A DNA stretch of 48,244 bases from Elusimicrobia bacterium CG08_land_8_20_14_0_20_51_18 (GCA_002774685.1 PEXN01000105.1:1-48244); one strand, 5' to 3'. Positions 1 through 47,240 are shown, numbered from the stretch's first letter. A program made the numbers and translations. Notes: generated by a model not told the origin, from the letters alone.

Positions 1-876
1 GAAGACGTGCCGGCCCTTTCTGTCGGCCACGAAGTAAAGAGCGTCTATTTCAGCCGGCGCCAGGGAGGCTCTGACAGATTCGACTCCCGGATTACAGATA
101 GGCCCCGGAGGAATGGAATTAACGTAATAAGTGTTGTAAGGCGAGGGGAATTTAAGGTCTTTATAGGATAAATTCTTTTTCCAATAGCCCAGGGCGTATT
201 GAACGGTGGGATCGGCCTCCAGGGGCATACGCTTTTTTATCCTGTTCAGATAAACGGCGGCTATAAGGGGCCTTTCCGTATCTATTACCGCTTCCCTCTC
301 CACTATCGAAGCGACTATCAGGATCTTATATTCCTCCAGCCCCATAAGGGCGGTCCTGCCGGAAAACAAAGGTTTTATGTTCCTTTCGTATTCGCCGGTA
401 AGGATATCCGTCACCTCTTCCGGCTTCATGTTTTTTTTCAGATGATAGGTCGAAGGGAAAAGGTAGCCCTCAAGTTTTTTCTCCTTTACCAGGTCCAGGA
501 AGGACGTTTCGTCGGAAATAACGCCGTTCGATTTCAGCCTCTCCGCTATCTGCTCGGCCCGCCAGCCTTCCGGAATGACTATTTTCACGCTCGAAATATA
601 GACCGAATGGGTAAGCTTCCAGAGCACGGCTTCGTGGGTAGACCTCTTCTTAAGCTCGTATTCGCCAGGCATTATTTTTTTTCCGGCGCCGGTAAACTTG
701 ACCAGCGCCCGGAACCAGAGGGAACTCCAGATTATCCCCGAGTCCTTAAGCTGTCTGGCTATCTGTGTGGCGGTACGGCCTTCTTCTACGGAAATCTTTA
801 CAGTTTCGCCCGGGTAAAAGAGATAGGCGGCGAAAAGCGGGAAGAATATGACCAGTAAAATGAAAAATTTTTTCAT
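1..876 (-). CDS. mltG: Endolytic murein transglycosylase MltG/YceG family (C-terminal end cut by window edge)
   Basis: Not in the ORF track because there is no stop inside the window. Reverse translation from the ATG at complement 874-876 gives MKKFFILLVIFFPLFAAYLFYPGETVKISVEEGRTATQIARQL... At nt 60-1 it reads ...APAEIDALYFVADRKGRHVF. This gives a membrane anchor plus a YceG-like C-terminal signature, with 292 codons open. Confidence 0.8.
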   Translation of the reverse strand, partial: MKKFFILLVIFFPLFAAYLFYPGETVKISVEEGRTATQIARQLKDSGIIWSSLWFRALVKFTGAGKKIMPGEYELKKRSTHEAVLWKLTHSVYISSVKIVIPEGWRAEQIAERLKSNGVISDETSFLDLVKEKKLEGYLFPSTYHLKKNMKPEEVTDILTGEYERNIKPLFSGRTALMGLEEYKILIVASIVEREAVIDTERPLIAAVYLNRIKKRMPLEADPTVQYALGYWKKNLSYKDLKFPSPYNTYYVNSIPPGPICNPGVESVRASLAPAEIDALYFVADRKGRHVF

Positions 877-1415: not shown

Positions 1416-2317
1416 TCCCGGCCGTTTTTTTTCCTTTTATCCGCCGCTCTTTTTTTTACGGCCTTTTTCACCTTGTTTTTTTTGTTCCCGGCCCCTTTCC
1501 CCTCGCCGCCGGAAGTCTTGACTTTGAGAAGAAAGTTTCTGAGCCTTTCCCTTTTTTCCCGGGGAAGTCTTTGCCATCTTTTCTTGTAAGCGGCCATATT
1601 TTTTTTCAGGACGGCAAGGCCGGACCTGTGTTTCATGAGCTTTGAAATTTTTATCACCTTGGGCCTTCTTATCGAAGGGGAAAGGGTAAGCTCGCTTCCC
1701 TTGCCGATCTGTATTTCCTGCGCTCCGTTCCCCTCTTCGCTCGGCGTCACGCCGAGCTGCCCCTCTTCGAAAACTCCGAAGGTGGTCTCCTTATTGAACA
1801 GGGACTGCTCCACGGCGAATTCGGTGCCCCTTATAGCGCAAACTGCGACCGGAGTGTGTATCTTCATTGAGAACTTCTTTCCAAGGACTCTTTCGAATTT
1901 GCCTATTATGGCCCCAAGGTTAAGGACCAGCGATGTATCTTCCTGTTGCAGGTTTTTAACCTCGAGCTCGGTGTTCCGGTCCACCTTTATGATCCCGCTG
2001 TTGCTGAAATAAAGTTCGGCATAGCCGGTGGAACCGGTTTTGACCGTATCGTCCGGGTCCACGGGATAATAGGAAGTTCCCTCTACGGTCACGTATTCCT
2101 CGGCGCCGGAATTTTTTATTTTTACGTCCCCGGAAATCCTCTTTATAAGCACCTCGAAATCGCCGGAAGAAGGGGCGCCGCCGGCTTCCTGCATTCTCCT
2201 GGCCTCTTCCATCATTTTGTTGTATTGTTCCATATCCGGCTGCTCCGGCTGTTTCTGCGAAAAAGACGAGGCAACGGTAAGGAGTAAAACCAGGCCCGTC
2301 GTTATTATTTTCATCAA
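1412..2317 (-). CDS. Secreted FecR-domain protein with Lys-rich C-terminal tail
   Basis: Signal-peptide-like N-terminus (MMKIITTGLVLLLTVASSFS), a FecR-type segment (...HTPVAVCAIRGTEFAV...) and a KKNKVKKAVKKRAADKRKKNGRE tail. It has 4-nt overlaps with the tyrS stop and the thpR start. Confidence 0.55.
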   Translation of the reverse strand: MMKIITTGLVLLLTVASSFSQKQPEQPDMEQYNKMMEEARRMQEAGGAPSSGDFEVLIKRISGDVKIKNSGAEEYVTVEGTSYYPVDPDDTVKTGSTGYAELYFSNSGIIKVDRNTELEVKNLQQEDTSLVLNLGAIIGKFERVLGKKFSMKIHTPVAVCAIRGTEFAVEQSLFNKETTFGVFEEGQLGVTPSEEGNGAQEIQIGKGSELTLSPSIRRPKVIKISKLMKHRSGLAVLKKNMAAYKKRWQRLPREKRERLRNFLLKVKTSGGEGKGAGNKKNKVKKAVKKRAADKRKKNGRE

Positions 2318-3492
2318 GCCCCCCTGATTATTTTTCTGAAATTTCTTTTTCCGGCCTGGAGTATCGCGTCCCTCGGCTCAAAAACCCCGTCTTCCGAGAT
2401 TTTTTGGGAATCGATTCTGACGGCCCCGCCCTCTATCAAACGCCGGGCCTCGTTCCCGCTTTTCGCCGCTCCGGCGGCGACGATTATCTGGGAAATTTTC
2501 ATCGGCTCCCGTATCACGAATTCAGGCATTTCCGACGGAAGCTCGTTCCTTGAAAAGACCTGTTCGAAACCCTGCCTGGCCTTTACGGCCTCTTCCCGGC
2601 CGTAGAACTTCTCCACCAGCGTTTCCCCGAGCTTCTTTTTGGCTTCCATAGGGTGCGCCGCCCTCACTTCGGCCATATCCGCCTCCGTCAGCAATTCGTA
2701 ATAGGAGTTCATGGTTTCGTCGCTCAAAGACATCGTCTTCCCGAAGATATCCTTCGGCTCGTCGTTAAAGGCTATGTAATTGTCGTAGGATTTGGACATT
2801 TTTTTTACGCCGTCCGTGCCCACCAGCAGGGGCATGGTCAGCGCCGTCTGCGGCGGCTGCCCGTAAAGCTTCTGCAGGTCCCTGCCCATGAGCAGGTTGA
2901 AGATCTGGTCCTGCCCGCCCAGCTCCACGTCCGCCTTGACGGCGACGGAATCGTAGCCCTGGAACACCGGGTAAAGCATTTCCAAAAGGCTTATGGGACT
3001 TTCCTGCTTCATTCTGTTCTTGAAATCTTCCCTCTCCAGGAGACGGGAAACCGTCACGCTTTTGGCTACGTTTATGAAATCTGAAAGCGAATCCTTTTTA
3101 AATTCGGTGAAAGGGATCAGCCATTCGCTGTTGAATTTAATCTCGGTCCTTTCACGGTCCAGTATCCTGAAAGCCTGGTCGGTATAGGTTTTGGCGTTGG
3201 CGAGCACCGAAGCCTTGTCCAGGACGGGCCTGGTGGAATCCTTGCCGGAGGGATCGCCCACCTGCGCGGTAAAATCGCCTATTATAAAGACCACCGTATG
3301 GCCCATCTCCTGAAAATGTTTCAGCTTGTTGAGAGGCACGATATGCCCGAGATGCAGGTCGGGACGGGTAGGGTCCACTCCGAATTTCACCCTCAGTTTC
3401 CTGCCGGAGACGAGTTTTTCCTTAAGTTCCGTTTCATTGACGAGATTTACGGACCCCCTTTTTATCAAGCTTATCTGTTCTTCGGTATTCAT
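2314..3492 (-). CDS. tyrS: Tyrosine--tRNA ligase
   Basis: Class I motifs HIGH (DLHLGHIVP) and KMSKS (VKKMSKSYDN), plus a C-terminal S4-like module (ARRLIEGGAVRIDSQKI). GAGGA lies 4 nt upstream of the ATG. Confidence 0.95.
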   Translation of the reverse strand: MNTEEQISLIKRGSVNLVNETELKEKLVSGRKLRVKFGVDPTRPDLHLGHIVPLNKLKHFQEMGHTVVFIIGDFTAQVGDPSGKDSTRPVLDKASVLANAKTYTDQAFRILDRERTEIKFNSEWLIPFTEFKKDSLSDFINVAKSVTVSRLLEREDFKNRMKQESPISLLEMLYPVFQGYDSVAVKADVELGGQDQIFNLLMGRDLQKLYGQPPQTALTMPLLVGTDGVKKMSKSYDNYIAFNDEPKDIFGKTMSLSDETMNSYYELLTEADMAEVRAAHPMEAKKKLGETLVEKFYGREEAVKARQGFEQVFSRNELPSEMPEFVIREPMKISQIIVAAGAAKSGNEARRLIEGGAVRIDSQKISEDGVFEPRDAILQAGKRNFRKIIRGA

Positions 3493-3714
3493 AAAATCCT
3501 CAAAGCCGGAAATTGAGATTAAGATATTAACACATCAGGAGATTAAGGGCTTTACGCGCCATTCAGCCCCGGATTTAAACGCTTAACCCGAAAAATTCAG
3601 TTGTCCTCTTCGAGGACTATCCCCTCCACATGGGCTATGAGGAATGGGATGGGCGGCATTTCCGCTTATAAACCGCGAATTTTTTTGTCCCCGAATTTTT
3701 TGCCGTTTCACGGC

Positions 3715-3942
3715 GGCCACCCCGATAAAGGAGCAATCACGCTCCGCGTCCCACTCCCCGCAACGAAGTAGCCGCTCTTTACCCCACAAGTAGGGGCCGC
3801 TCTTTATGCGGTGCGGTAGCCCATATAGACGGGACAGCCCCGGAACAACGAGCCTCCGGCTCATCAGGTGTCGGCTTGCCCGCTGGGCGCAGCCAGGGAG
3901 GCTCTGACGACGACCTCTTGTATGGGGCGTATCGGGGTGGCC
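3715..3942. ncRNA. Unclassified structured element, copy 1 (paralogue of 38364-38574); strand unresolved
   Basis: A 13/13 Watson-Crick closing helix pairs 3715-3727 (GGCCACCCCGATA) with 3930-3942 (TATCGGGGTGGCC). An internal 8-bp helix pairs 3850-3857 with 3897-3904, and there are several short GC hairpins. Block 3747-3775 is 24/29 identical to 38413-38441. GC-rich hairpins continue in the flanks (about 3600-4045). ORFs called here are Arg/Gly/Pro-rich shadows. Confidence 0.45.
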
Positions 3943-4016
3943 GGGTTTTACCCTGCCACCCACTCAGCGGCTCAAAGCCGCTCCTTTCAGTATGACCAGG
4001 CGGCAGCCGCGGCGGT

Positions 4017-4041
4017 GAATCCTTCAGCAACTGAAGGATTC
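4017..4041. terminator. Perfect 11-bp hairpin (GAATCCTTCAG-CAA-CTGAAGGATTC), terminator-like
   Basis: Lies 58 nt downstream of the priA-like stop on the minus strand, with no U-tract on that strand. A T-rich tail (AGGTTAATTTCTCAATCTTTATTTT) follows on the plus strand, so it could instead end a plus-strand RNA covering 3600-4045. Confidence 0.35.
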
Positions 4042-4098
4042 AGGTTAATTTCTCAATCTTTATTTTCCGAATCTCTTGCTCCATATATTTTATATTTT

Positions 4099-6039
4099 TT
4101 ACAGGTCGGTTAAAACCGAGATTTTTGTTTTTTTCGGCGGCTTAAGGCCGGCTATAAAGGCGAGGAAAGGCCCATAGGCGTCTTTCCCTATCTTAAAAGT
4201 GTTGGAATGCGAATATTTCGAAAGCCTCTTCACGAATTTCAATTTATAAGGATACCGGTGCTCTATTATGTTTAATTCCGAAAGTCTGGCCTCGTCCCTG
4301 AGACTTTCGATGAAAGAATTGGAAAAGTCCTTGAGCGAAACGGGATCCGCGGAAATAAATTCGACCCGAGCCATAAAACTGAAAGGGGGATAGGAAAAGG
4401 TCTTTCTAAGGTCCAGTTCCTCTTCCAGAAATTTTCTGTAATCCGCGAAATCCAGAAAGGAGAACGACTCGGGCTCGTGGCTCTGTATCACCAGCTCGGA
4501 ATCCCCGTAGCCGAGCAAAGCCGAAGCTTTCATTATGTTTTGAAGGATCTTTTCGTTAAGCCGGAAGTCCGCGGAATTTTTGTGATACATCTCCGCGAAA
4601 GCCACCGTTCCCGCCTCCCTTACCAGGAAAGAGTCGAGTATTATGGCGGTGCCGAGGAGGACGTCGAAATTGCCGTCCATTATCCCGGTTATTATTTTTT
4701 CGGTTTCGTTCACCGATTTTTTCACGTCGTCGCCGTCGAATTTAAGTATCCTTTTTTCCGGATACATTTTTTTCAGTTCTTTAAATATCCTTTGTACGCC
4801 GAAACCTTTGGCCACCATCAGCTGATTGCCGCATTTTCCGCAGGAGGCGGAATATTCCTCTTTGTGCGAACAATAGGAACAGCGGTAGAATCTGGCGCCT
4901 TCCTCGTCCTCGAAAATATGCATCAGGGAATTACACTTCCCGCATCTTTTCATCCAGTAGCATTTGGCGCAGAAACTCCTGGGGGAAAAGCCCCGGCTCG
5001 AGGCTATCACATAGGCTTTTCTGCCGGCAGCCATAGCCCTTTTCACCGCCTCGTTCAATTCCGGAGAAACCGCCGTCTCGGGATTTTTCCTCATGTCGAC
5101 CATCTCATAACGGATCTTGCCCGTCCCTCCCTCGTCCAGCAGTTCCAGGCCGCCGTTCAGGTGCAGGTGATAGAGCTCCGCATCGGGAGGATTCCCCGCG
5201 AGCAGTATCTTATGGCCGAAAATCCCGGCCAGCTTCATAGCCAGCGCCCTGGTATTGTAATAAGGCTTCTGGTCGAACTGCCTGTACATCTCGTTCCCGT
5301 GGTCGGCCATAATTATAAGCGTTTTCGCCAGGAATGGCAGAAAAACGGAAGATTTCGTCCCCGCTACAATTCTCTTTTCTCCCGCGTAAACATGATTCCA
5401 AAGTTCGCGCTTCCGCTTTTTGGTCAGGCGGCTGTGCCAGAGAGCAGTTTCTTCCGCCAGCGCGCCGTTAAGAAAACTTTTGTAAAGGGCTATGGCCGAA
5501 GGGATGTCAGGGACCAGAAAAAGACAGCGGAGGCCTTTGGAAAGGGCGTAGGCGGCCGCCGCGGTAAGATTTTCGGATTCCTTCCGGTCGTTGAAAACCA
5601 GAGCGGCGGTTTTATCCTCCGCGTCCAGAAATTTTTTTATCTTTTCCGAAAATTCCGGATTTTCAAAAACGGCCACGGAAACTCTTTCAGGGGCGGGGAG
5701 TACCGGGCCGTCCGGTATAAGGGCCAGGAAGTTACCCAGCACCACAGGCGCCTCGCAATACCACCTCGAGGCCATGTATGAAACGATCTCTCCAAGCTTT
5801 TCAGGAGGAAAAACCGGTTCCGAGTCCACCGCTTCGGTTATTTCCTTTAACGAGGGCAGGGCCGAAAGGTCGGCGTCCTTTTCTTCGAGAACGGCGGTCA
5901 CATAGCCCGCGACCCTCTCCCTTCCGGCGAAAGACGCGACTATACGCAATCCCGGCTTCATCAGGCCGGTAAGTCTCTCCGGTATCCTGTAATAAAAGGT
6001 TCTGTTAAGGGCTATGGGAAAAGAAACTTCGGCTATCAT
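4099..6039 (-). CDS. priA: Primosomal protein N' (PriA)-like, with degenerate ATPase/helicase motifs
   Basis: PriA architecture and length (646 aa). N-terminal DNA-binding region, and the Cys-rich zinc module CAKCYWMKRCGKCNSLMHIF...YRCSYCSHKEEYSASCGKCGN. The Walker A, DExH, SAT and motif VI positions are not conserved (see finding). Confidence 0.75.
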   Translation of the reverse strand: MIAEVSFPIALNRTFYYRIPERLTGLMKPGLRIVASFAGRERVAGYVTAVLEEKDADLSALPSLKEITEAVDSEPVFPPEKLGEIVSYMASRWYCEAPVVLGNFLALIPDGPVLPAPERVSVAVFENPEFSEKIKKFLDAEDKTAALVFNDRKESENLTAAAAYALSKGLRCLFLVPDIPSAIALYKSFLNGALAEETALWHSRLTKKRKRELWNHVYAGEKRIVAGTKSSVFLPFLAKTLIIMADHGNEMYRQFDQKPYYNTRALAMKLAGIFGHKILLAGNPPDAELYHLHLNGGLELLDEGGTGKIRYEMVDMRKNPETAVSPELNEAVKRAMAAGRKAYVIASSRGFSPRSFCAKCYWMKRCGKCNSLMHIFEDEEGARFYRCSYCSHKEEYSASCGKCGNQLMVAKGFGVQRIFKELKKMYPEKRILKFDGDDVKKSVNETEKIITGIMDGNFDVLLGTAIILDSFLVREAGTVAFAEMYHKNSADFRLNEKILQNIMKASALLGYGDSELVIQSHEPESFSFLDFADYRKFLEEELDLRKTFSYPPFSFMARVEFISADPVSLKDFSNSFIESLRDEARLSELNIIEHRYPYKLKFVKRLSKYSHSNTFKIGKDAYGPFLAFIAGLKPPKKTKISVLTDL

Positions 6040-20679: not shown

Positions 20680-20686
20680 AAAAGAC

Positions 20687-20789
20687 TCCTTAATTAACGG
20701 CAGATCAAGATTAAGACTGAGTAAGTTTAGAGTTTAGAGTTCTCTAAACCACGTTGCTCTAAACTAAGTTGCTCTAAACTAAATTGCGG
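20687..20789 (-). repeat. Intergenic repeat family, copy A (short form; functional orientation is the minus strand, toward glnA)
   Basis: Shares CTCAGnCTTAATCTTGATCTGCCGTTAATyAAGGAG, CTCTAAACTCTAAAC and 15-nt units with copies B and C. It has three tandem 15-mers on the plus strand at 20742-20756, 20757-20771 and 20772-20786 (CTCTAAAC + 7 nt). Confidence 0.8.
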
Positions 20790-20863
20790 AAATTATATTT
20801 TAAGTATATCAAATTTTTCAGGCTTTTCAGGAACGGAGCACGAGTTAAAATAGCCCGTTTGGA

Positions 20864-23340: not shown

Positions 23341-23502
23341 AGGTTAAGCGTTAGATTAAGGTTGAGAGAACAGTAATTTAGTTTAGAGTAATTTAGTTCA
23401 AAGTAATTTAGTTTGGAGCAACTTGGCAAAACAGCTCTAAACTCTAAACTTTAAACTCTAAACTTTCTCAGCCTTAATCTTGATCTGCCGTTAATCAAGG
23501 AG
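23341..23502 (+). repeat. Intergenic repeat family, copy B (long form; faces accB)
   Basis: The core 23381-23449 is the exact reverse complement of 24281-24349. It has three 15-nt direct units at 23373-23417 and CTCTAAAC at 23435, 23442 and 23456. It ends with the accB SD AAGGAG at 23497-23502. Confidence 0.9.
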
Positions 23503-24248: not shown

Positions 24249-24411
24249 TTAACGGCAAATTAAGACTGGGATACAGGAAAGTTTAGAGTTTAGAGCTGTT
24301 TTGCCAAGTTGCTCCAAACTAAATTACTTTGAACTAAATTACTCTAAACCAAGTTGCTCTAAACTGAATTACTGTTTTCTCAACCTTAAGCTAATCCGTC
24401 GCTTAATCTGC
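24249..24411 (-). repeat. Intergenic repeat family, copy C (long form; inverted relative to B, same orientation as A)
   Basis: The core 24281-24349 is the reverse complement of 23381-23449 (69/69). The flanks are imperfect, and the terminal leader/SD segment is degenerate (CTTAATTTGCCGTTAACCC). Confidence 0.9.
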
Positions 24412-37487: not shown

Positions 37488-38363
37488 TCATGTCCGCCGC
37501 CCTTCCGTGAGCCGCCTCAGCGAACTGACATCTCCCTCTTCCGAAACCCGGAAATAACGCGTATTCTGCAGGGAAAAAGCGGCGCGGCACTCGCTCAGCC
37601 ACTTTTCATGTTTTTCTTCGAGGATCTTCCTGAAACCGGAATATTCAAAGGCCAGTTCCTCTCCCGTTTCCGCGTCGGAGAGAAGGACTTCCCCGGCGGA
37701 ACTTATTATTTTACCGAGGTCCTTCTCGAAAAAATGAAAGACCGTCTTTTCCCTGGGATTCGCGGCCAGGACGGCCGCCAGCGCCCTGAGTTTTTCCCGG
37801 GGAAAAAAAAGGTCCGAAAAGAAGGCCATTCTGCAGTTCTTCCCCGTTTCGGCGGCCTTGCCGGCGAAAGTTTCCACTTCGAAATTCCCGCCGGAAAATT
37901 CCGCCGAAGAAAAAAACTCGTCGAGAATTATCAGTTTTTCGAAACCGCGGAGAGAGGGGCTGGAAACCGTTTTTTTCTCCCGCAGCAGGTGGAGGTTCAG
38001 CTTTTCTCCCCTTAAAAGCAGTATCCCGCAGGCGTAAAGGGCGAATTTCACGAAAAGCCGGGAATATTCCCCGGAAAAACCCATGGAAGCCGAAGCGTCG
38101 AAAAAAATTTCCCAGCCCGTACGTCTTTCCTGAAGAAAATCCTTGACATAGAGCCTCTCGTTCCTGGCATAGGCTTTCCAGTCTATAAACCGGGAGCCTT
38201 CTCCGGCATTGTGGCTGCGGTGTCCGGCGAATTCCGAATCGGGAGTCCTGGAAGAAATATTGCCCAGGTTCATTCCGCCGGCTTCTCCGCCGCGGCTGAA
38301 ACCCTGCCTGCTGCCCGCCAGATTTTTTATTTTTTTTATATCTTCGTCGTCGAGATATTTCAT
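37488..38363 (-). CDS. DUF58 family protein
   Basis: Signature ...GEGSRFIDWKAYARNERLYVKDF... typical of DUF58 proteins that follow MoxR ATPases. Confidence 0.85.
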   Translation of the reverse strand: MKYLDDEDIKKIKNLAGSRQGFSRGGEAGGMNLGNISSRTPDSEFAGHRSHNAGEGSRFIDWKAYARNERLYVKDFLQERRTGWEIFFDASASMGFSGEYSRLFVKFALYACGILLLRGEKLNLHLLREKKTVSSPSLRGFEKLIILDEFFSSAEFSGGNFEVETFAGKAAETGKNCRMAFFSDLFFPREKLRALAAVLAANPREKTVFHFFEKDLGKIISSAGEVLLSDAETGEELAFEYSGFRKILEEKHEKWLSECRAAFSLQNTRYFRVSEEGDVSSLRRLTEGRRT

Positions 38364-38574
38364 CCGGCCACCCGCTTATCCCGACACCCGCTCAGGGCAT
38401 AAAGCCCGTTTTCGTCCCGCTCCTCACAGCGAAGCAGCCGCTTTATGCGGTAGCCCGAACAGAAGGGACAGTCCCTTCCCCTTATTCCATAAGGAAGAGA
38501 GACGGGCAAGCGGGTGTCGGGATTATCAGTCTTTAAAATATCGTGCCGCTTTATGCGGCAAGCGGGTGGCAGGA
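38364..38574. ncRNA. Unclassified structured element, copy 2 (paralogue of 3715-3942); fills the whole TPR/DUF58 spacer
   Basis: Nested helices pair 38366-38377 with 38560-38570 and 38378-38392 with 38509-38523 (15/15). Hairpins sit at 38395-38407, 38434-38454, 38480-38494 and 38545-38559. CACCCGCT and AGCGGGTG are each duplicated, which allows alternative pairing. Confidence 0.5.
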
Positions 38575-39642
38575 TCATTTTCCGGAACCCGCCCGCCTTA
38601 CGAGATGAGCGAGCTTTTCTCCGGCCGGTCCGTATCCGAGGTCCGCGCTTTTTTTCCAGTCCTTCAGGGCTTCCTTTACCCGGCCTTCCTGAAAATTTAT
38701 TCTGCCGCGAAGATCGTAAAGAAGGGGGAGGTCGGCCCCGGTTTTTGCCATGGCCAGCTCGGCGTATTCGAGAGCCTCTTTCTGCCTGTTAAGCCTGTAA
38801 AGCTGTTTTGAAAGAAAATACGCGTCATAGGAGGAAATTTCCTTTCCCCGGAGCGCGGCCGCTTTTCCCATATCCTCGCAAGCCCCGGAATAATCCCCGA
38901 GCTCTTCCAGAAAAAAAGCCCTTTCTTCCAGGTAATCCGCGGTTTCCGGCGACGCCGAAACCGCCCTGGAAACGCAATATATCGCGTTTGAACGCAAACC
39001 CGCTCCTTTATAGGCCTTGTACAGGCCGAACCATATCTCGGGATTTTCCGGATACCTGAGCAGGGCCTTTTTCAGGTCGGAAACGGCCTCCGGGTATTTT
39101 CCCAGTCCGGTGAGGAGCCCTGCTCTTTCCGGGAGCAGAGAATAATCCGACGGATCTATCTTTACCGCGCTGTTCAGGTCGGCCAGGGCTTTTTCCTCCC
39201 GCCCCGTTTCCGCGTAAGCGCGCGCCCTCATGAAATAAGCTTCGGTGTCGAACGGGTCGAGGCTCAGCGATTTGGAGGCGTAAAAGATCTCTCCCTCGTA
39301 ATCTTTCAGATATTCGCCCAGGATGAAAGCTTTCAGGTTATACGAAGCTGCTTCCGGGTAACCGAGCTTTATGCTTTTTTCCAACTCTTCAAGAGCCCGC
39401 TCATAAAGCCCCTGATTCTTCAGGGCCATCGCCTTAAGATAGAACAGGTAGCCGTTCCCGCCGTGCCCAGGCAGGGATTTTTCTATAAGCTTAAGCGCTT
39501 CTTCGTTCCTGTCTTCCCTTAAAAAATCTCCGACCACGGCGATATCCGGAGCGTCAAGCAGGTCCCCGCAAACATGATAAAAAAAATAGGAAACGGAAAA
39601 AAGGGAAAAAAGCGTCAATATCGCGAGGGGAATTCTTTTCAT
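38575..39642 (-). CDS. TPR-repeat protein, membrane-anchored or secreted
   Basis: Multiple TPR repeats. The start is set at the ATG 39640-39642 (MKRIPLAILTLFSLFS...), which overlaps the moxR stop as ATGA. The ORF-track N-terminal 67 codons are a shadow inside moxR. Confidence 0.8.
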   Translation of the reverse strand: MKRIPLAILTLFSLFSVSYFFYHVCGDLLDAPDIAVVGDFLREDRNEEALKLIEKSLPGHGGNGYLFYLKAMALKNQGLYERALEELEKSIKLGYPEAASYNLKAFILGEYLKDYEGEIFYASKSLSLDPFDTEAYFMRARAYAETGREEKALADLNSAVKIDPSDYSLLPERAGLLTGLGKYPEAVSDLKKALLRYPENPEIWFGLYKAYKGAGLRSNAIYCVSRAVSASPETADYLEERAFFLEELGDYSGACEDMGKAAALRGKEISSYDAYFLSKQLYRLNRQKEALEYAELAMAKTGADLPLLYDLRGRINFQEGRVKEALKDWKKSADLGYGPAGEKLAHLVRRAGSGK

Positions 39643-40670
39643 CTCGAAATTATGTCTTTTATTATGTCGTCGGCTGAAACCGAGTCGGACTTCGCCTGAA
39701 AATTGAGTATTATTCTGTGCCTGAGCGCCGGACCCGCCACGGCCTTGACGTCTTCCGCCGAAGGGGCGCACCGGCCCTGCAGGGCGGCCCGCGCCCGCGC
39801 CGCCAGGACCAGGTATTGCGAACCGCGGGGGCCGGCTCCCCACAAAACGTATTTTTTTATTTTTTCCGAAGAAGAACAGGCGGGCCTCGTTTCGGCCGCC
39901 AGCCTGACGGCGAAATCCACCACGGAGTCGGCGGCCGGCAGACTTGCGACGGTTTTCTGCATCCTGGAAATTTCCCCGGCGCCTGCCGCTTTTTCGAGCC
40001 CGGCCGTTTCAAGGGAAGGAATCTCTCCGGCTATTTTTTTTTCTTCCTCTATTTTCGGATAAGAGATGTTAAGCTGCATAAAAAAACGGTCCAGTTGGGC
40101 CTCGGGGAGGTTGTAAGTCCCCTCCTGCTCTATCGGATTCTGCGTGGCAAAAACCATGAAAGGGGAGGGAAGGGGATAGCTTTCTCCGGCTACGGTAACG
40201 CTCAACTCCTGCATGGCCTCGAGCAAAGCCGACTGAGTTTTACTGGGCGCCCTGTTTATTTCGTCAGCCAGTACAAGATTCGCGAAAACCGGTCCCCGGA
40301 AAAATTCGAAAGCTTTTTCTTCGCGTTCTTTACGAACCAATATCTCATAACCCGTTATATCCGAAGGCATCAGATCCGGCGTGAACTGTATCCTGGAAAA
40401 TTTAAGGTCCAGTATCCTGGACAAGGAGGAAACCAGAAGCGTTTTTGCGAGCCCGGGGACGCCGACTATCAGCACGTGGCCCCTGGAAAAAAGCGAAACG
40501 AGTATATTCCCGACCGTTTCCTCCTGGCCGGTTATGATCTTTGAAAGCTCTCTCTTTATTTTGCTTCCGCAATCGGAAATTTCGCGGATTTTATTTTCCA
40601 TTTCATTCACCCCGCCACCTGCTTGCGAATCGCTTTCAGACTTGGGCGGAAAGCGGTGCGGGGTGGTCAT
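39639..40670 (-). CDS. MoxR-like AAA+ ATPase
   Basis: Walker A GVPGLAKT and Walker B LADEINRAP. The start is ambiguous. ATG 40668-40670 is preceded by TGTATAAT-N7. ATG 40599-40601 (MENKIREI...) is preceded by GGGGTGA and gives the usual MoxR length. Confidence 0.9.
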   Translation of the reverse strand: MTTPHRFPPKSESDSQAGGGVNEMENKIREISDCGSKIKRELSKIITGQEETVGNILVSLFSRGHVLIVGVPGLAKTLLVSSLSRILDLKFSRIQFTPDLMPSDITGYEILVRKEREEKAFEFFRGPVFANLVLADEINRAPSKTQSALLEAMQELSVTVAGESYPLPSPFMVFATQNPIEQEGTYNLPEAQLDRFFMQLNISYPKIEEEKKIAGEIPSLETAGLEKAAGAGEISRMQKTVASLPAADSVVDFAVRLAAETRPACSSSEKIKKYVLWGAGPRGSQYLVLAARARAALQGRCAPSAEDVKAVAGPALRHRIILNFQAKSDSVSADDIIKDIISR

Positions 40671-40688
40671 AAAATTGATTATACAAAA

Positions 40689-40723
40689 AAAAGGCAAAAG
40701 GCTTCAGGCTCAAGGCAGAAGGG
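40689..40723 (+). repeat. Five consecutive heptads nnnAGGC (AAAAGGC AAAAGGC TTCAGGC TCAAGGC AGAAGGG)
   Basis: Read directly. It lies just upstream of the moxR start region, and the motif is on the non-transcribed strand relative to moxR. Confidence 0.75.
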
Positions 40724-44138: not shown

Positions 44139-47100
44139 GTGAAAAAAAACATATCCAACTCGATTTTCGCCCTGATAATGACGCTTACCATACTGGCGCT
44201 CTATTTTCAGGGAGCGGTAATAGAGAACATAGAGCTTAAATTTTACGATTTCTACTCCTCCATAAAAGCCCCTTCTTCCACCAGCAACGACATAACGCTT
44301 ATCGAGATAAACGACGAAAGTCTCGCTAAAGTCGGCAGGTGGCCATGGGAAAGGTCCAAAATAGCGGAAATGATAACCTGGCTGAATTCCCAGAACGCGA
44401 AACCCGCCATAATAGGCCTCAATATCCTTTTTTCCGAGCCGGAGAACAATAAATCCAAACAGGTGGCCGACCGGATAGAGGCGAGGTACAAGGAACTGGT
44501 CGCCCAGAAAAAAATAAGGGAAATATCGAAGGACTCCGAATTCCTGGCCACCGTGGACGGTCTTAAAAAGGACCTGGACAACGATTTAAAACTGCAGATA
44601 GCGATCAGCACGGGCGGTAACGTGGTTCTGCCTATGTTTTTCGAATTAAGCGAAATAAATTCCAAGCCCAGGGAAGAACCGGAATATTTCAAGTCCATGG
44701 CCATCACTCTCAACCAGAATTCCCCGGAAGAAATGCGGGATGAAGCCTCCGGCCTGACGCTCCCGATAGACTCCCTGGGCTCCGGCGCCAGGGCGGTGGG
44801 ACACACCAACGTCGTGAACGACATCGACGGCTCCCTTAGAAGGCATAACCCTTTCCTGGAATACAACGGCAGCGTCTATCCTTCCTTCCCCGTACAGATA
44901 GCGAATCTCTACGCCGGCAAGGAATCCAGGGACCTCGTCCTTAAATCCGGAGAAAATTTCAGAATAGGGAAGAACACTATCGCCCTGGACACCGACTCCT
45001 CCATGCATCTCTCTTACAGCAAGGGCGGAAAAACCTTCAGGTCCTATTCTTTCTACGACGTCATAAACAACAAGATAGTCCCGGAAGCTTTCAACAACAA
45101 GGTAGTGCTGATAGGGCTTACGGCTCACGGTTACGTAACCACCTACGTCACGCCGGTGGAAAAGAGCATGACCAACCTGGAGCAGTCGGCCAATGTCATA
45201 GACAACCTCATGAAAGGCGATTTCATCCACGTCCCGCAATGGGCCGCTATGGCGGAAATTTCCGCCATAGCGGCGGTGGGCCTGTTCGCCATAATAGCGC
45301 TGCCTTTTCTGAAAGCCGCCATGGGCGCCATAGTCTCCATACTCATACTTCTCCTGCTGATGGGAACCTCCTCCTATCTTTTCATTTACAAGGGCATGTG
45401 GATAAAAATGACCTACCCTTCAGCGCTGCTTATCGCTTCGTATATTTTTATAGTTTCCAAGAGATTTTTCTCCACCGAAAAGAAAAAAGAGCTCATAGAA
45501 GTTTCCCAGATAGAAACCAACAAGATGCTCGGCCTTTCCTTCCAGGGCCAGGGCATGCTGGACCTGGCTTTCGAGAAGTTCAGGCTCTGCCCGGTGGACG
45601 ACAATATGAAGGAACTGCTCTACAATTTGGGCCTGGATTTCGAGAGGAAAAGGCAGTTTAACAAGGCGAAAGCCGTTTACGAACACGTATCCGAAAAAGA
45701 TCCCGGCTACAAAGACCTTAAGGAAAAAATAGAAAACCTGACTAAAGCCGCCGACGGCGGAGTATTCGCGAGCCCGGCCGGAAAAAACAAGGAAAGCACC
45801 ATTTTGGTCTCAGGCTCGAGCGCCACTCCCACGCTGGGCCGCTACGAAGTCATGAAAGAGCTGGGGAAAGGCGCCATGGGCATAGTCTACCTGGGCAAAG
45901 ACCCGAAGATCAACAGGACGGTGGCCATAAAAACGATGCGTTTCGAGGAAGGGTTGGAAGAAAAGGAAATGAAAGCCCTGAAAGAAAGATTTTTCCGGGA
46001 AGCGCAGGCGGCGGGAAATCTTTCCCATCCCAATATAGTCAAGATCTTCGACGCCGGCGAGGACCAGGACATAGCTTATATGGCCATGGAACTTCTTAAG
46101 GGCGAAGACCTCAAAAAATACACCCGGAAGGAAAACATCCTGCCTCGGGAAAAGGCCCTGCTCTACACCTACCAATCCGCGCTGGCGCTGGATTACGCCC
46201 ACAAGAACGGGGTGGTGCACCGCGACATAAAACCGGCCAATATAATGCTTCTCGAAGACGGCTCGCTGCGCGTAACCGACTTCGGCATAGCCAGAATACA
46301 GGAATCCTCCAAAACCGCCACCGGGACCGTGATGGGAACTCCCTACTACATGAGCCCGGAACAGATACAGGGCAAGAAAGTGGACGGCCGGGCGGACCTT
46401 TTCTCGCTCGGAGTAACCATGTACGAACTGCTCACCTGCGAAAGACCCTGGAAAGGCGGCGAATCCGTGGCCACCCTTTTCTATCAGATAACAAGCGAGC
46501 CCTATCCGGATCCCAGGGAATACGACAAGAGCCTGAGCGAGCCGATAATAAGGATAATCGACAAGGCCCTGAAAAAAAATCCGGACGAAAGATATCAGAA
46601 CGGGGCCGAAATGGCGGAGGACATAAAAGCCGTCATGGACGACAAGTCCGGCGGACAAACCTCCGCCGCCCCGGCTGCCGCCGCTAAAAACCCGGCCCCG
46701 AAACCGGCGGCAAATCCGGCTCCGGCGCCGGCCCCGAAGCCGGCACCGGCTACAACCGCTAAAACCCCGGCCCCTCAGCCGGCGACCAAACCGGCTCCAG
46801 CGCCGGTCCCGAAACCGGCCCCGGCTATGCCCGCTAAAACCCCGCTCCCTCAGCCGGCGGCCAAGGCGGCCCCGGCTCCCGCTCCGGCGCCGAAACCGGC
46901 TCCCAGACCGCGGCCCGCGGCTCTGGATCTAGGCGGAATAACGGTGGAAAAAGAGCCCAAGGCGGCTATGCAGCTTAAACCGGCCGAGCTTTCGCTTCAG
47001 CCCGGCGGACCGAAAAAGGAACCGGTCAAAGAAACGCCCAAATCGGACCCTATAGTGAAAGACAGCCTGCAGCTCCCTATTTCGGAAACGCTTAACCAAA

Positions 47101-47240
47101 GCTCCGAAAAATCCCCGGAAAAGCCGGCGCCTCTGGCGGCCAATCCGCCGGGACCGGGGGAAAACGGTTATGATTTTGAAAAGACTCTTCCTCTCATCTA
47201 TCCCGAGGAAGAAGGGGGGGGAAATGAGTTTAAAAATTAA
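44139..47240 (+). CDS. CHASE2 sensor - TPR - Ser/Thr kinase - Pro/Ala-repeat protein
   Basis: CHASE2 signature (ITLIEINDESLAKVGRWPWERSKIAEMITWL...GLNILFSEPE) followed by TM helices. The kinase has GKGAMGIVYLGKD, VAIKTM, HRDIKPANIM and DFGIA. GTG start with GGAGAA SD. Confidence 0.9.
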   Translation: MKKNISNSIFALIMTLTILALYFQGAVIENIELKFYDFYSSIKAPSSTSNDITLIEINDESLAKVGRWPWERSKIAEMITWLNSQNAKPAIIGLNILFSEPENNKSKQVADRIEARYKELVAQKKIREISKDSEFLATVDGLKKDLDNDLKLQIAISTGGNVVLPMFFELSEINSKPREEPEYFKSMAITLNQNSPEEMRDEASGLTLPIDSLGSGARAVGHTNVVNDIDGSLRRHNPFLEYNGSVYPSFPVQIANLYAGKESRDLVLKSGENFRIGKNTIALDTDSSMHLSYSKGGKTFRSYSFYDVINNKIVPEAFNNKVVLIGLTAHGYVTTYVTPVEKSMTNLEQSANVIDNLMKGDFIHVPQWAAMAEISAIAAVGLFAIIALPFLKAAMGAIVSILILLLLMGTSSYLFIYKGMWIKMTYPSALLIASYIFIVSKRFFSTEKKKELIEVSQIETNKMLGLSFQGQGMLDLAFEKFRLCPVDDNMKELLYNLGLDFERKRQFNKAKAVYEHVSEKDPGYKDLKEKIENLTKAADGGVFASPAGKNKESTILVSGSSATPTLGRYEVMKELGKGAMGIVYLGKDPKINRTVAIKTMRFEEGLEEKEMKALKERFFREAQAAGNLSHPNIVKIFDAGEDQDIAYMAMELLKGEDLKKYTRKENILPREKALLYTYQSALALDYAHKNGVVHRDIKPANIMLLEDGSLRVTDFGIARIQESSKTATGTVMGTPYYMSPEQIQGKKVDGRADLFSLGVTMYELLTCERPWKGGESVATLFYQITSEPYPDPREYDKSLSEPIIRIIDKALKKNPDERYQNGAEMAEDIKAVMDDKSGGQTSAAPAAAAKNPAPKPAANPAPAPAPKPAPATTAKTPAPQPATKPAPAPVPKPAPAMPAKTPLPQPAAKAAPAPAPAPKPAPRPRPAALDLGGITVEKEPKAAMQLKPAELSLQPGGPKKEPVKETPKSDPIVKDSLQLPISETLNQSSEKSPEKPAPLAANPPGPGENGYDFEKTLPLIYPEEEGGGNEFKN
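46683..46907 (+). repeat. Three tandem 75-nt in-frame repeats (25-aa AKxPxPxPAxxxAPAPxPKPAP units)
   Basis: The units start with GCTAAAA at 46683, 46758 and 46833. This is the most GC-rich stretch of the window. Confidence 0.8.

What the first reader, a model, noticed from the sequence alone, without database searches (positions are those of the whole stretch)
3600..4045. Larger paralogue of the same element between the priA-like gene and tyrS, with compensatory closing-helix changes
The core 3715-3942 is closed by a 13/13 helix (GGCCACCCCGATA / TATCGGGGTGGCC). Both copies start GGCCACCC and end GGGTGGC(C). The inner part of the helix differs on both strands together (CCGATA/TATCGG here, GCTT/AAGC in copy 2), so pairing is kept while the sequence changes. 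Two conserved internal blocks support homology. 3747-3775 (CGTCCCACTCCCCGCAACGAAGTAGCCGC) matches 38413-38441 at 24/29. GCCGCTCTTTATGCGG...TAGCCC..AGACGGGACAGCCCC (3796-3840) matches 38437-38475 with two small gaps. This copy carries an internal duplication of GCCGCTCTTTA (3771 and 3796) and an extra domain closed by 3850-3857/3897-3904. An alternative helix, 3935-3941 (GGGTGGC) with 3955-3961 (GCCACCC), competes with the closing helix, so the switch-like layout recurs. More GC hairpins flank the core (3603-3617, 3967-3981, 4017-4041). The 606-nt gap has no credible CDS.
Basis: partly seen in the sequence, partly recalled or inferred. Interest (0 to 1): 0.72.

Follow-up and report, generated by a model that had tools for sequence, protein, structure and literature searches.

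The report
Mobile palindromic repeat, not a riboswitch
The strongly folded 450-base stretch between the priA-like gene and tyrS is one copy of a family of hairpin-forming, non-coding repeat elements scattered through this Elusimicrobiota genome; it is an insertion, not a dedicated regulatory RNA of tyrS.

Summary
A 13/13 closing helix (3715-3727 / 3930-3942), two collinear 30-nt blocks shared with copy 2 (25/30 each) and the flanking hairpins are all there. No Rfam family, tRNA or tmRNA matches.

The interpretation as a tyrS-linked structured or switch RNA does not hold. Three related Elusimicrobiota keep the UDG-priA-tyrS-FecR order but have only 18-52 nt between priA and tyrS, so the 606-nt gap is an insertion.

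The homologous unit is 3583-4048. It has imperfect terminal inverted repeats (CCYGAA..., 10/14) and a direct TTAA on each side. A roughly 88-90% identical copy lies in an unrelated context (L086) flanked by CTAA. Three independent assemblies that carry this priA break inside the element. At least nine sites carry family members, including deletion derivatives, one copy with the core inverted and copies with different cargo.

Five copy-2-type members sit exactly at start codons, are flanked by a direct TGA, and each keeps an open frame from the 5' ATG to the 3' (A/G)TGA although the peptides are unrelated. This resembles the mycobacterial MIRUs.

Inside the shared core, covariation is weak.

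Best reading: a mosaic, MITE-like palindromic repeat family, which I found described nowhere and which is so far seen only in one narrow Elusimicrobiota lineage. A functional RNA core is not excluded.

The parts
3583..4048 (-). Whole composite repeat element (copy-1 type), including the flanking TTAA direct repeats
   Evidence: Homology with L086 (unrelated flanks) and with L008/L085 starts at 4047-4048 and ends at about 3583 (about 3572 in L085). Relatives have only 18-52 nt between priA and tyrS.
4045..4048 (.). TTAA direct repeat, priA side (candidate target-site duplication)
   Evidence: Read directly. L086 has CTAA at both ends in the same positions. Both fit the YTAR 4-bp duplication known for IS5.
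3583..3586 (.). TTAA direct repeat, tyrS side
   Evidence: Read directly.
4031..4044 (.). Terminal inverted repeat, priA side (minus-strand reading CCTGAATCCTTCAG); also the 3' arm of the hairpin 4017-4041
   Evidence: 10/14 identical to the reverse complement of the other end, both in the window and in L086.
3587..3600 (.). Terminal inverted repeat, tyrS side (plus-strand CCCGAAAAATTCAG)
   Evidence: alignment.
3953..4006 (-). Minimal palindromic module: 13-bp stem (3994-4006 with 3953-3965) enclosing the hairpin AGCGGC-TTTGA-GCCGCT (3966-3982). It resembles the outer frame of copy 2.
   Evidence: The local alignment to the end of copy 2 covers the 3' arm and inner hairpin of this module. The stem is perfect (13 bp) in L086 and has 3 G.U on the minus strand in the window.
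3715..3942 (-).
   Evidence: L086 keeps the helix with one compensated pair and one G.U. L085 has lost its 3' arm through a deletion of about 130 nt.
3742..3844 (-).
   Evidence: Covariance model R1 scores 80.1 bits, E = 1.5e-17, on the minus strand.
3842..3923 (-). Extra domain inside the hairpin GCCCC/GGGGC (3837-3841 with 3924-3928)
   Evidence: About 76 nt are absent from L086, where the hairpin is GCCCC-ATAAGA-GGGGC.
3610..3656 (+). Degenerate fragment of the core in the opposite orientation
   Evidence: R1 scores 23.2 bits, E = 0.0045. The same fragment is at L085:10536-10581.
38360..38578 (-). Copy 2 (type 2) with its flanking TGA direct repeats. It lies between the TPR gene stop and the DUF58 start and contains a 72-codon open frame.
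   Evidence: The outer helix is 38367-38377 with 38560-38570. The inner helix (38378-38523) has 15 standard pairs plus one terminal G.U.
2314..3492 (-). tyrS, downstream neighbour (context)
   Evidence: Pfam tRNA-synt_1b.
4099..6039 (-). priA-like gene, upstream neighbour (context)
   Evidence: Pfam PriA_3primeBD. Three independent assemblies carrying this exact protein end inside the element, at window positions 3761, 3793 and 4021.

Best explanation
Window 3583-4048 is a non-autonomous, mosaic palindromic repeat element (MITE-like) that inserted between priA and tyrS in this Elusimicrobiota lineage. It is built from modules of one repeat family:
- an outer pair of imperfect terminal inverted repeats flanked by a duplicated TTAA;
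- a minimal palindrome carrying a small GC hairpin with loop TTTNA;
- a hairpin-closed unit (3715-3942) carrying a core of about 100 nt that is also the cargo of copy 2;
- a degenerate inverted fragment of that core.

Shown: it is an insertion, it is repeated at many unrelated sites, it has inverted-repeat ends and flanking direct repeats, and it decays through deletions and cargo changes.

Inferred:
- It is moved in trans by a transposase encoded elsewhere. This could be a DDE enzyme, given the TIRs and YTAR-like duplication, or a hairpin-recognising single-strand DNA enzyme, given the covarying stems.
- It is co-transcribed with priA and tyrS on the minus strand, where it folds into stable hairpins.
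- Any effect on tyrS is incidental (mRNA stability, processing, read-through).

The related type-2 members, including copy 2, insert into the TGA of an ATGA start context. The terminal A or G of the element rebuilds the downstream start codon. The 5' ATG then opens a frame that runs through the element and stops on the downstream start codon. Translation would thus open the helix that buries the G-rich, Shine-Dalgarno-like 3' arm and hand the ribosome to the downstream gene.
For: Insertion:
- The UDG-priA-tyrS-FecR-LigT-YceG order is conserved in L001, L003, L004 and L005, with priA-tyrS gaps of 52, 18, 51 and 51 nt.
- Model R1 finds no copy in those loci.

Repeat:
- The metagenome scan and BLAST give family members at nine or more sites in hand: the window (2 copies), L081, L082, L086, and L085 with three full members and one partial fragment within 10.6 kb. 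A further member, known only from its translated frame, is in an NCBI Elusimicrobia MAG (P0125).
- Three independent assemblies carrying the identical priA end inside the element.

Ends:
- The composite has TIRs at 10/14 and TTAA (window) or CTAA (L086) on both sides. This fits the YTAR duplication of IS5.
- Five type-2 copies have TCC...GGA ends and a direct TGA on each side.

Decay and mosaicism:
- L085 lacks the 3' arm of the closing helix. L086 lacks the extra domain.
- L085:7021-7149 lacks most of the core. L085:5102-5254 carries two simple hairpins as cargo.
- The cargo of copy 2 is inverted relative to L081, L082 and L085b.

Not coding:
- No Pfam match.
- The codon score of the 72-aa frame is below 99.4% of real gene windows.
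- An exhaustive protein search finds only two true relatives, both translations of other copies.
- Differences between copy 2 and L081 fall 4, 3 and 7 on codon positions 1, 2 and 3 (hand count).

Open-frame rule:
- All five type-2 copies have a length that is a multiple of 3 and are open only in the ATG frame. For four of them the chance of openness in shuffles is 0.04, 0.08, 0.04 and 0.21, before the additional 1/3 for frame.

Literature:
- MITEs are defined by TIRs, direct repeats and stable stem-loop transcripts (PMC10969869).
- MIRUs insert at start codons with a coupled ORF (PMC12548453).
Against: - No autonomous element with matching ends was found. Only about 125 kb of DNA from this lineage and its close relatives was available.
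- No empty site was seen within the same species. The empty sites are in relatives with 68-73% TyrS identity.
- The TIRs of the composite are imperfect (10/14), and TTAA/CTAA could partly be chance in AT-rich flanks.
- Stems covary extensively. Five and four compensated pairs occur in the inner helices of L082 and L085c relative to copy 2, and two covarying positions occur in the TTTNA hairpin.
- Non-Watson-Crick pairs are mostly G.U on the gene-sense strand: 11 against 3 after removing duplicates (hand count checked; binomial p about 0.06). A purely DNA-level TIR model does not predict this. It points to selection on a folded single strand.
- The core is 84-90% identical between copies whose frames differ, so some constraint on it is possible.
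Confidence: 0.72

Rival explanations
1. The core of about 100-150 nt is a functional structured RNA, either an sRNA or a cis-acting mRNA element. It has been duplicated or carried around, and copy 1 is a larger paralogue with an extra domain.
For: - Very stable folds.
- The core-sense strand folds better than the opposite strand in 4 of 5 copies.
- The G.U bias favours the gene-sense strand, which coincides with core-sense in only about half of the copies (hand count checked).
- The S1 stem changes from U-A to C-G between types, and closing helices are compensated.
- The core scores 79-97 bits with one model in all copies.
- No Rfam family matches, so it would be new.
Against: - Absent from the priA-tyrS junction and from about 50 kb of related genomes.
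- The core occurs in both orientations relative to neighbouring genes, about three each.
- It is deleted or replaced in family members that otherwise persist.
- The L085 copy has lost one arm of the closing helix.
- Internal covariation is not above control.
- No sigma-70-like promoter on either strand.
Confidence: 0.15
2. The inverted repeats flank an invertible DNA segment (inverton-like switch) whose orientation controls the downstream gene.
For: - Perfect 13-16-bp inverted repeats flank 115-200 nt directly upstream of genes.
- The cargo of copy 2 is inverted relative to L081, L082 and L085b within the same outer frame.
Against: - Both orientations were never seen at one locus. L078 and the eight contigs carrying the copy-2 ORF all have the same orientation.
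- No invertase gene is nearby.
- No promoter-like site lies in the segment.
- One historical inversion by recombination between the repeats explains the data.
Confidence: 0.05
3. The elements are small protein genes, a Cys-containing peptide of about 72 aa in Bat/MoxR operons, and copy 1 is a frameshifted pseudogene.
For: - An open frame with ATGA overlaps at both ends in copy 2 and L081; a gene was called on it in the JGI contig.
- 72% amino-acid identity between P0122 and P0123.
- An in-frame 6-nt indel between copy 2 and L081.
Against: - Non-coding codon usage and no family match.
- Only two relatives among 1.8 billion representatives.
- The frame stays open when the cargo is inverted, deleted or replaced, which gives unrelated peptides.
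- Substitutions are not concentrated at third codon positions.
- The fold z-score of -8 to -9 is atypical for coding sequence.
- In copy 1 the two blocks lie in different frames with a stop between them.
Confidence: 0.03
4. A T-box or other leader RNA regulating tyrS.
For: The position upstream of tyrS; GGGTGG and TACCGC strings faintly recall the T-box sequence.
Against: - No hit to any Rfam model even at E up to 10 on either strand.
- Absent upstream of tyrS in relatives.
- The same element occurs next to unrelated genes.
Confidence: 0.01

Closest known systems
Bacterial MITEs (e.g. Correia elements of Neisseria, ERIC, QMITE of Coxiella)
   Same: - Small and non-coding, with terminal inverted repeats.
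- Short flanking direct repeats.
- Many dispersed intergenic copies.
- Transcripts that fold into very stable stem-loops.
- Often co-transcribed within operons (PMC10969869).
   Different: - No cognate insertion sequence has been identified.
- The element is a mosaic of nested palindromic modules with exchangeable cargo.
- Stems covary rather than being identical between copies.
- G+C-rich (57-64%) in a 51% G+C genome, whereas MITEs are usually A+T-rich.
MIRUs (mycobacterial interspersed repetitive units; Supply et al. 1997, as summarised in PMC12548453)
   Same: The type-2 relatives, including copy 2, sit at start codons or stop/start overlaps. They carry an ORF whose end overlaps the downstream start by 4 nt, so the insertion preserves translational coupling.
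   Different: - MIRUs are 46-101-bp direct tandem repeats (from my own knowledge), not long palindromes.
- They are mycobacterial.
- Copy 1 itself has no such frame.
Rickettsia palindromic elements (RPE)
   Same: Palindromic repeats of about 150 bp that persist because they keep a reading frame open.
   Different: RPEs insert inside protein genes as in-frame fusions. These elements lie between genes as separate coupled frames.
REP/REPIN/BIME elements mobilised by RAYT (HUH) transposases; IS200/IS605-derived palindromic elements
   Same: - Mosaic clusters of GC-rich palindromes.
- Structure rather than sequence is conserved in the stems.
- A recurrent small hairpin with a conserved loop (TTTNA) and a covarying stem.
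- Strand asymmetry.
- A short specific sequence at both boundaries.
   Different: - Units are much longer than 20-40-nt REPs.
- There is no consistent GTAG/CGTC tag: GTAG sits next to the CCGC hairpin in copy 1 but is GCAG in copy 2.
- Long terminal inverted repeats pair the two ends, which IS200/IS605 ends do not do.
- No RAYT or TnpA gene was seen.
T-box leader of tyrS (Rfam RF00230)
   Same: Position upstream of an aminoacyl-tRNA synthetase gene; a large structured leader.
   Different: No match to the model, not conserved in relatives, and found next to unrelated genes.

Membership tests
MITE (miniature inverted-repeat transposable element) | Small size, no transposase gene | tested here: met
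   The element is 466 nt. ORFs of 81-126 aa have no Pfam hit and non-coding codon scores.
MITE | Terminal inverted repeats | tested here: met
   Composite: 10/14 in the window and in L086. Type-2 copies: 10-16-bp terminal helices.
MITE | Target-site duplication (flanking direct repeats) | tested here: met
   TTAA/TTAA in the window and CTAA/CTAA in L086. TGA/TGA in five type-2 copies. These were read directly. No same-species empty site confirms them.
MITE | Multiple dispersed copies in one genome | tested here: met
   Nine or more sites in contigs of the same or closely related organisms. Assemblies break inside the element.
MITE | Occupied versus empty orthologous sites | tested here: met
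   The priA-tyrS gap is 18-52 nt in L001 and L003-L005, against 606 nt here. These relatives are distant (68-73% TyrS identity).
MITE | Cognate autonomous IS with the same terminal repeats | not testable with these tools
MIRU-like start-codon-coupled repeats | Internal ORF overlapping the flanking genes' stop and start by 4 nt, in the same orientation | tested here: not met
   Not met for copy 1, the finding: there is no through-frame. Met for copy 2, L081, L082, L085b and L085c.
MIRU-like start-codon-coupled repeats | Direct tandem repeat units of about 46-101 bp | tested here: not met
   The elements are single palindromic units. No tandem array was found at either copy.
T-box leader | Match to the T-box covariance model (specifier and T-box sequence) | tested here: not met
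   cmscan of 3450-4150 on both strands at E up to 10 gives no T-box hit. There are no gathering-level hits in the whole window.
T-box leader | Conserved upstream of the regulated synthetase gene in relatives | tested here: not met
REP/REPIN (RAYT-associated) | 20-40-nt imperfect palindromes with a GTAG or CGTC tag at the foot | tested here: inconclusive
   GTAG precedes the CCGC hairpin on the plus strand in copy 1 (3766-3769), but it is GCAG in copy 2. The units are far longer than REPs.
REP/REPIN (RAYT-associated) | RAYT gene in the genome | not testable with these tools
   Only 48 kb plus a few contigs of this organism are available.
Any Rfam 15 family (RNase P, tmRNA, 6S, SRP, OLE, HEARO, ROOL and others) | Score at or near the gathering threshold | tested here: not met
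   ARAGORN finds nothing.

The most novel reading that the evidence does not exclude
The conserved core of about 100 nt (blocks CUGUCCC..GGGYUACCGC-hairpin..GGGAC on the minus strand) and the recurrent TTTNA hairpin form a functional, mobile structured nucleic acid. It could be an RNA or single-stranded DNA recognised by a so far unidentified enzyme of this lineage, such as a guide or scaffold RNA or a hairpin-dependent transposition substrate. The family would then have evolved a start-codon-splitting insertion strategy that rebuilds the host start codon and keeps translational coupling through a palindrome.
Probability: 0.12. Interest if true: 0.7.

Novelty: new member of a known kind. Interest (0 to 1): 0.38.

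Why it matters
It removes a false lead. This is not a new riboswitch or large regulatory RNA of tyrS.

It documents a repeat family in Elusimicrobiota, a phylum with few studied mobile elements, that I found described nowhere. Its copies break metagenome assemblies and can create chimeric joins; L008 versus the window may be one example.

The type-2 members give a second, independent example, after the mycobacterial MIRUs, of selfish repeats that insert at start codons and survive by keeping an open, translationally coupled frame. Here that happens through a very stable palindrome that buries the ribosome-binding region. That part is testable and of some general interest for how operons tolerate insertions.

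Tried and rejected
- Rfam at gathering level on the whole window, and permissive scans of both copies: only noise.
- tRNA and tmRNA search: none.
- Genome-contig scan with GCGGTAGCCC-N8-GGGACAG: 69 hits, which equals the random expectation, and none in Elusimicrobiota. The same pattern in viral contigs gave 2 chance hits in coding regions.
- DUF58 neighbour search with too strict a cut-off returned only the protein itself.
- P0125 (NCBI MAG) could not be located as DNA.
- Plasmid collection, distant BLAST: no match.
- MAFFT plus RNAalifold on whole units misaligned the two types. I therefore modelled only the shared core. Its internal covariation is not above control.
- The protein-gene reading of the 72-aa frame was rejected on codon usage, the lack of relatives and unrelated peptides in other copies. 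The HMMER hits to long proteins with Zn-ribbon repeats rest only on the motif GRGCPYCSG.
- The 17-nt exact match of 3892-3908 to window 59-75 lies in a coding-looking region and was treated as chance.
- Sigma-70 promoter scan of 3400-4200: none on either strand. Only weak terminator-like hairpins appear on the plus strand.

Full report
**1. What is in the sequence**

The region lies in the 606-nt gap between a priA-like gene (4099-6039, minus strand) and tyrS (2314-3492, minus strand).
- The 13/13 closing helix 3715-3727 / 3930-3942.
- The shared termini GGCCACCC and GGGTGGC.
- Two collinear 30-nt blocks shared with copy 2 at 25/30 each.
- The duplicated GCCGCTCTTTA, the extra domain closed by 3850-3857 / 3897-3904, and the flanking hairpins.

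Folding is better than shuffles: z = -3.6 and -3.1 for copy 1, and -7.8 and -9.3 for copy 2. Nothing in Rfam 15 matches either copy, even at E up to 10. There is no tRNA or tmRNA.

**2.

TyrS places the window in Elusimicrobiota. The best named hits are Elusimicrobiales at 65-70% identity. I fetched the tyrS loci of three relatives with 69-73% TyrS identity. All keep the order UDG, priA, tyrS, FecR, LigT, YceG. The priA-tyrS spacer in them is 52, 18, 51 and 51 nt. The structured 450 nt are therefore an insertion in this lineage, not a conserved tyrS leader. A covariance model of the shared core finds no copy anywhere in those loci.

**3. It is a dispersed repeat**

An exhaustive protein search with the accidental 72-aa frame of copy 2 found two further translated copies. 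A metagenome scan with a core pattern on the minus strand (CTGTCCCNNCTNTNNGGGNTACCGC) and follow-up BLAST added more family members.
- L081 (identical to L079 and L080).
- L082.
- L086.
- Three full members and one partial fragment within the 10.6-kb contig L085.

L085, L008, L078 and L087-L089 come from the same species as the window, at 97-100% identity. L081 and L082 have the same G+C content (0.51). L082 also shares a second repeat family with the window.

Three independent assemblies that carry the identical priA protein all end inside the element, at window positions 3761, 3793 and 4021. This is what assemblers do at multi-copy repeats.

**4. Anatomy of copy 1**

Comparison with L086, whose flanks are unrelated, shows homology from 4047-4048 to about 3583 at 88-90% identity. 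The unit has three end features.
- Imperfect terminal inverted repeats: minus-strand CCTGAATCCTTCAG against CCCGAAAAATTCAG, 10/14. L086 also has 10/14.
- A direct TTAA on each side (3583-3586 and 4045-4048).
- L086 has CTAA on each side. Both tetramers fit the YTAR 4-bp duplication of IS5-type elements (PMC5009759).

Read on the minus strand, the unit contains, in order:
- an 11-bp hairpin that includes the left repeat (4017-4041);
- a minimal palindrome (3994-4006 pairing with 3953-3965) enclosing the hairpin AGCGGC-TTTGA-GCCGCT;
- the hairpin-closed unit 3715-3942 with the shared core (3742-3844; R1 80 bits);
- an extra domain (3842-3923), about 76 nt of which L086 lacks;
- a small hairpin (3702-3714);
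- a degenerate core fragment in the opposite orientation (3610-3656; R1 23 bits);
- a final hairpin (3603-3617).

GCCACCC at 3955-3961 is the arm of the neighbouring palindrome, which carries the same end motif.

The same-species copy in L085 has a deletion of about 130 nt that removes the 3' arm of the 13-bp closing helix. That helix is therefore dispensable for persistence.

**5. The copy-2 type and the start-codon rule**

Five elements share one architecture: copy 2, L081, L082, L085:7021-7149 and L085:5102-5254. From the outside in, they have:
- terminal repeats TCCnGCCACCCGCTT... or TCCAGACACC...;
- a second perfect 15-16-bp inverted repeat;
- a variable cargo;
- an AT-rich linker;
- a small GC hairpin with loop TTTNA.

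The cargo differs between copies. It is the shared core in L081 and L082, the same core inverted in copy 2, a remnant of it in L085b, and two unrelated hairpins in L085c. The outer frame occurs in both orientations relative to the downstream gene.

In all five, the element is flanked by a direct TGA. The 3' TGA overlaps the start codon of the downstream gene: ATGA four times and GTGA once. The base before it is the last base of the element. The 5' copy reads ATGA. In copy 2 and L081 this overlaps the stop of the upstream gene. Removing copy 2 together with one TGA restores GGAAAATGAAATAT, a normal ATGA stop/start overlap.

All five have a length divisible by 3 and are open only in the frame that starts at the 5' ATG. 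For four of them the chance of openness in shuffles is 0.04-0.21 each, before the factor of 1/3 for frame. Yet the peptides are unrelated where the cargo differs. Codon usage is non-coding, there is no family match, and substitutions are not concentrated at third positions (hand count).

I infer selection for translation through the element rather than for a peptide. The G-rich 3' arm of the outer helix ends 2 nt before the start codon and would otherwise be sequestered. This matches what is reported for mycobacterial MIRUs, which 'insert themselves at start codons' with a coupled ORF at -4 spacing (PMC12548453). Copy 1 has no such frame. Its two blocks fall in different frames with a stop between them.

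**6. RNA structure or DNA palindrome?**

Complementarity is clearly maintained.
- L086 against copy 1: one C-G to G-C swap and one G.U.
- Inner helices of L082 and L085c against copy 2: five and four fully compensated pairs.
- The TTTNA hairpin has four stem variants with two covarying positions.

Among imperfect pairs, 11 are G.U on the gene-sense strand and 3 would be G.U only on the other strand (non-redundant hand count checked; p about 0.06). The core-sense strand, which for both window copies is the minus strand, folds better than its complement in 4 of 5 units. This suggests selection or mutation bias acting on one folded strand. That strand could be the mRNA or a single-stranded DNA transposition intermediate.

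Three points weigh against a dedicated RNA. Paired termini are also what inverted-repeat elements need. The internal helices of the shared core show no covariation above control (2 pairs with double changes; 37 of 500 shuffles reach the score). The core also occurs in both orientations relative to local transcription.

**7. Conclusion and comparison**

The finding is a real, strongly structured, repeated element. Its best description is a mosaic MITE-like palindromic repeat that landed between priA and tyrS.

It meets the testable MITE criteria: small size, no transposase, terminal repeats, flanking duplications, many copies, and occupied versus empty sites. The cognate transposase could not be sought.

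It differs from typical MITEs in three ways. It is G+C-rich, it is built of nested modules with exchangeable cargo, and its stems covary. The last point leaves a hairpin-dependent (HUH-type) mobilisation possible.

It is not a T-box, not any Rfam family, and not a protein gene.

I found no description of such a family in Elusimicrobiota, so it is a new member of a known kind. The residual novel possibility, about 12%, is that the core or the TTTNA hairpin is a functional RNA or single-stranded DNA module.

Noticed in passing
window 20686-20800, 23351-23502, 24278-24394; L082:3824-3904: A second, unrelated intergenic repeat family. It consists of arrays of a 15-nt unit (like TAGAGTAATTTAGTT) in inverted orientation, with 56-81-nt inverted repeats at 93-96% identity. 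The arrays bracket rpsO-pnp and an accB-like gene and lie upstream of ftsK. The family is also present in L082.
   Followed up: partly
window 46668-46892: Three tandem 75-nt repeats (75-81% identical) inside the 1033-aa ORF 44139-47240. They encode a Pro/Ala-rich repeat.
   Followed up: no
L008:1-570 and L085:8664-10463 versus window 4049-4110: In two other contigs of the same species, the copy-1-type element is preceded by a YgiQ-like radical-SAM gene instead of priA. In L008 it is still followed by tyrS. This could be a second genomic copy, recombination between copies, or an assembly chimera at the repeat.
   Followed up: partly
L085:5040-5420 (minus strand): A TGTTATAAT box ends about 7 nt before the 5' ATG of the type-2 element at L085:5102-5254. 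The element frame, and before insertion the host gene, may therefore be translated from a leaderless mRNA.
   Followed up: no
L082:303-330: Directly next to the L082 element there is a second ...GGCGGCCGGATGA end-like sequence. This suggests repeated insertion into the target that each insertion regenerates.
   Followed up: no
window 4099-6039: The priA-like protein is only about 30% identical to its syntenic counterparts, while the neighbouring TyrS is about 70% identical. Pfam detects only the 3' DNA-binding domain and a zinc ribbon.
   Followed up: no
window 3892-3908 and 59-75: A 17-nt exact match (GCCAGGGAGGCTCTGAC) links the extra domain of copy 1 and the start of the window. The second site looks coding, so this is probably chance.
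   Followed up: partly
window 38575-39843 and 39639-40697: The longest ORF for the TPR protein overlaps the MoxR gene by about 200 nt, so its real start is probably further downstream. The operon order here is MoxR-TPR-[element]-DUF58-BatA/VWA.
   Followed up: no
proteins P0124, P0126-P0133: The 72-aa element frame gives HMMER hits (E 1e-7 to 1e-3) to long proteins made of repeated zinc-ribbon units (...EWDxEKN...GRGCPYCSG...). The similarity rests on one short motif and was judged spurious.
   Followed up: partly
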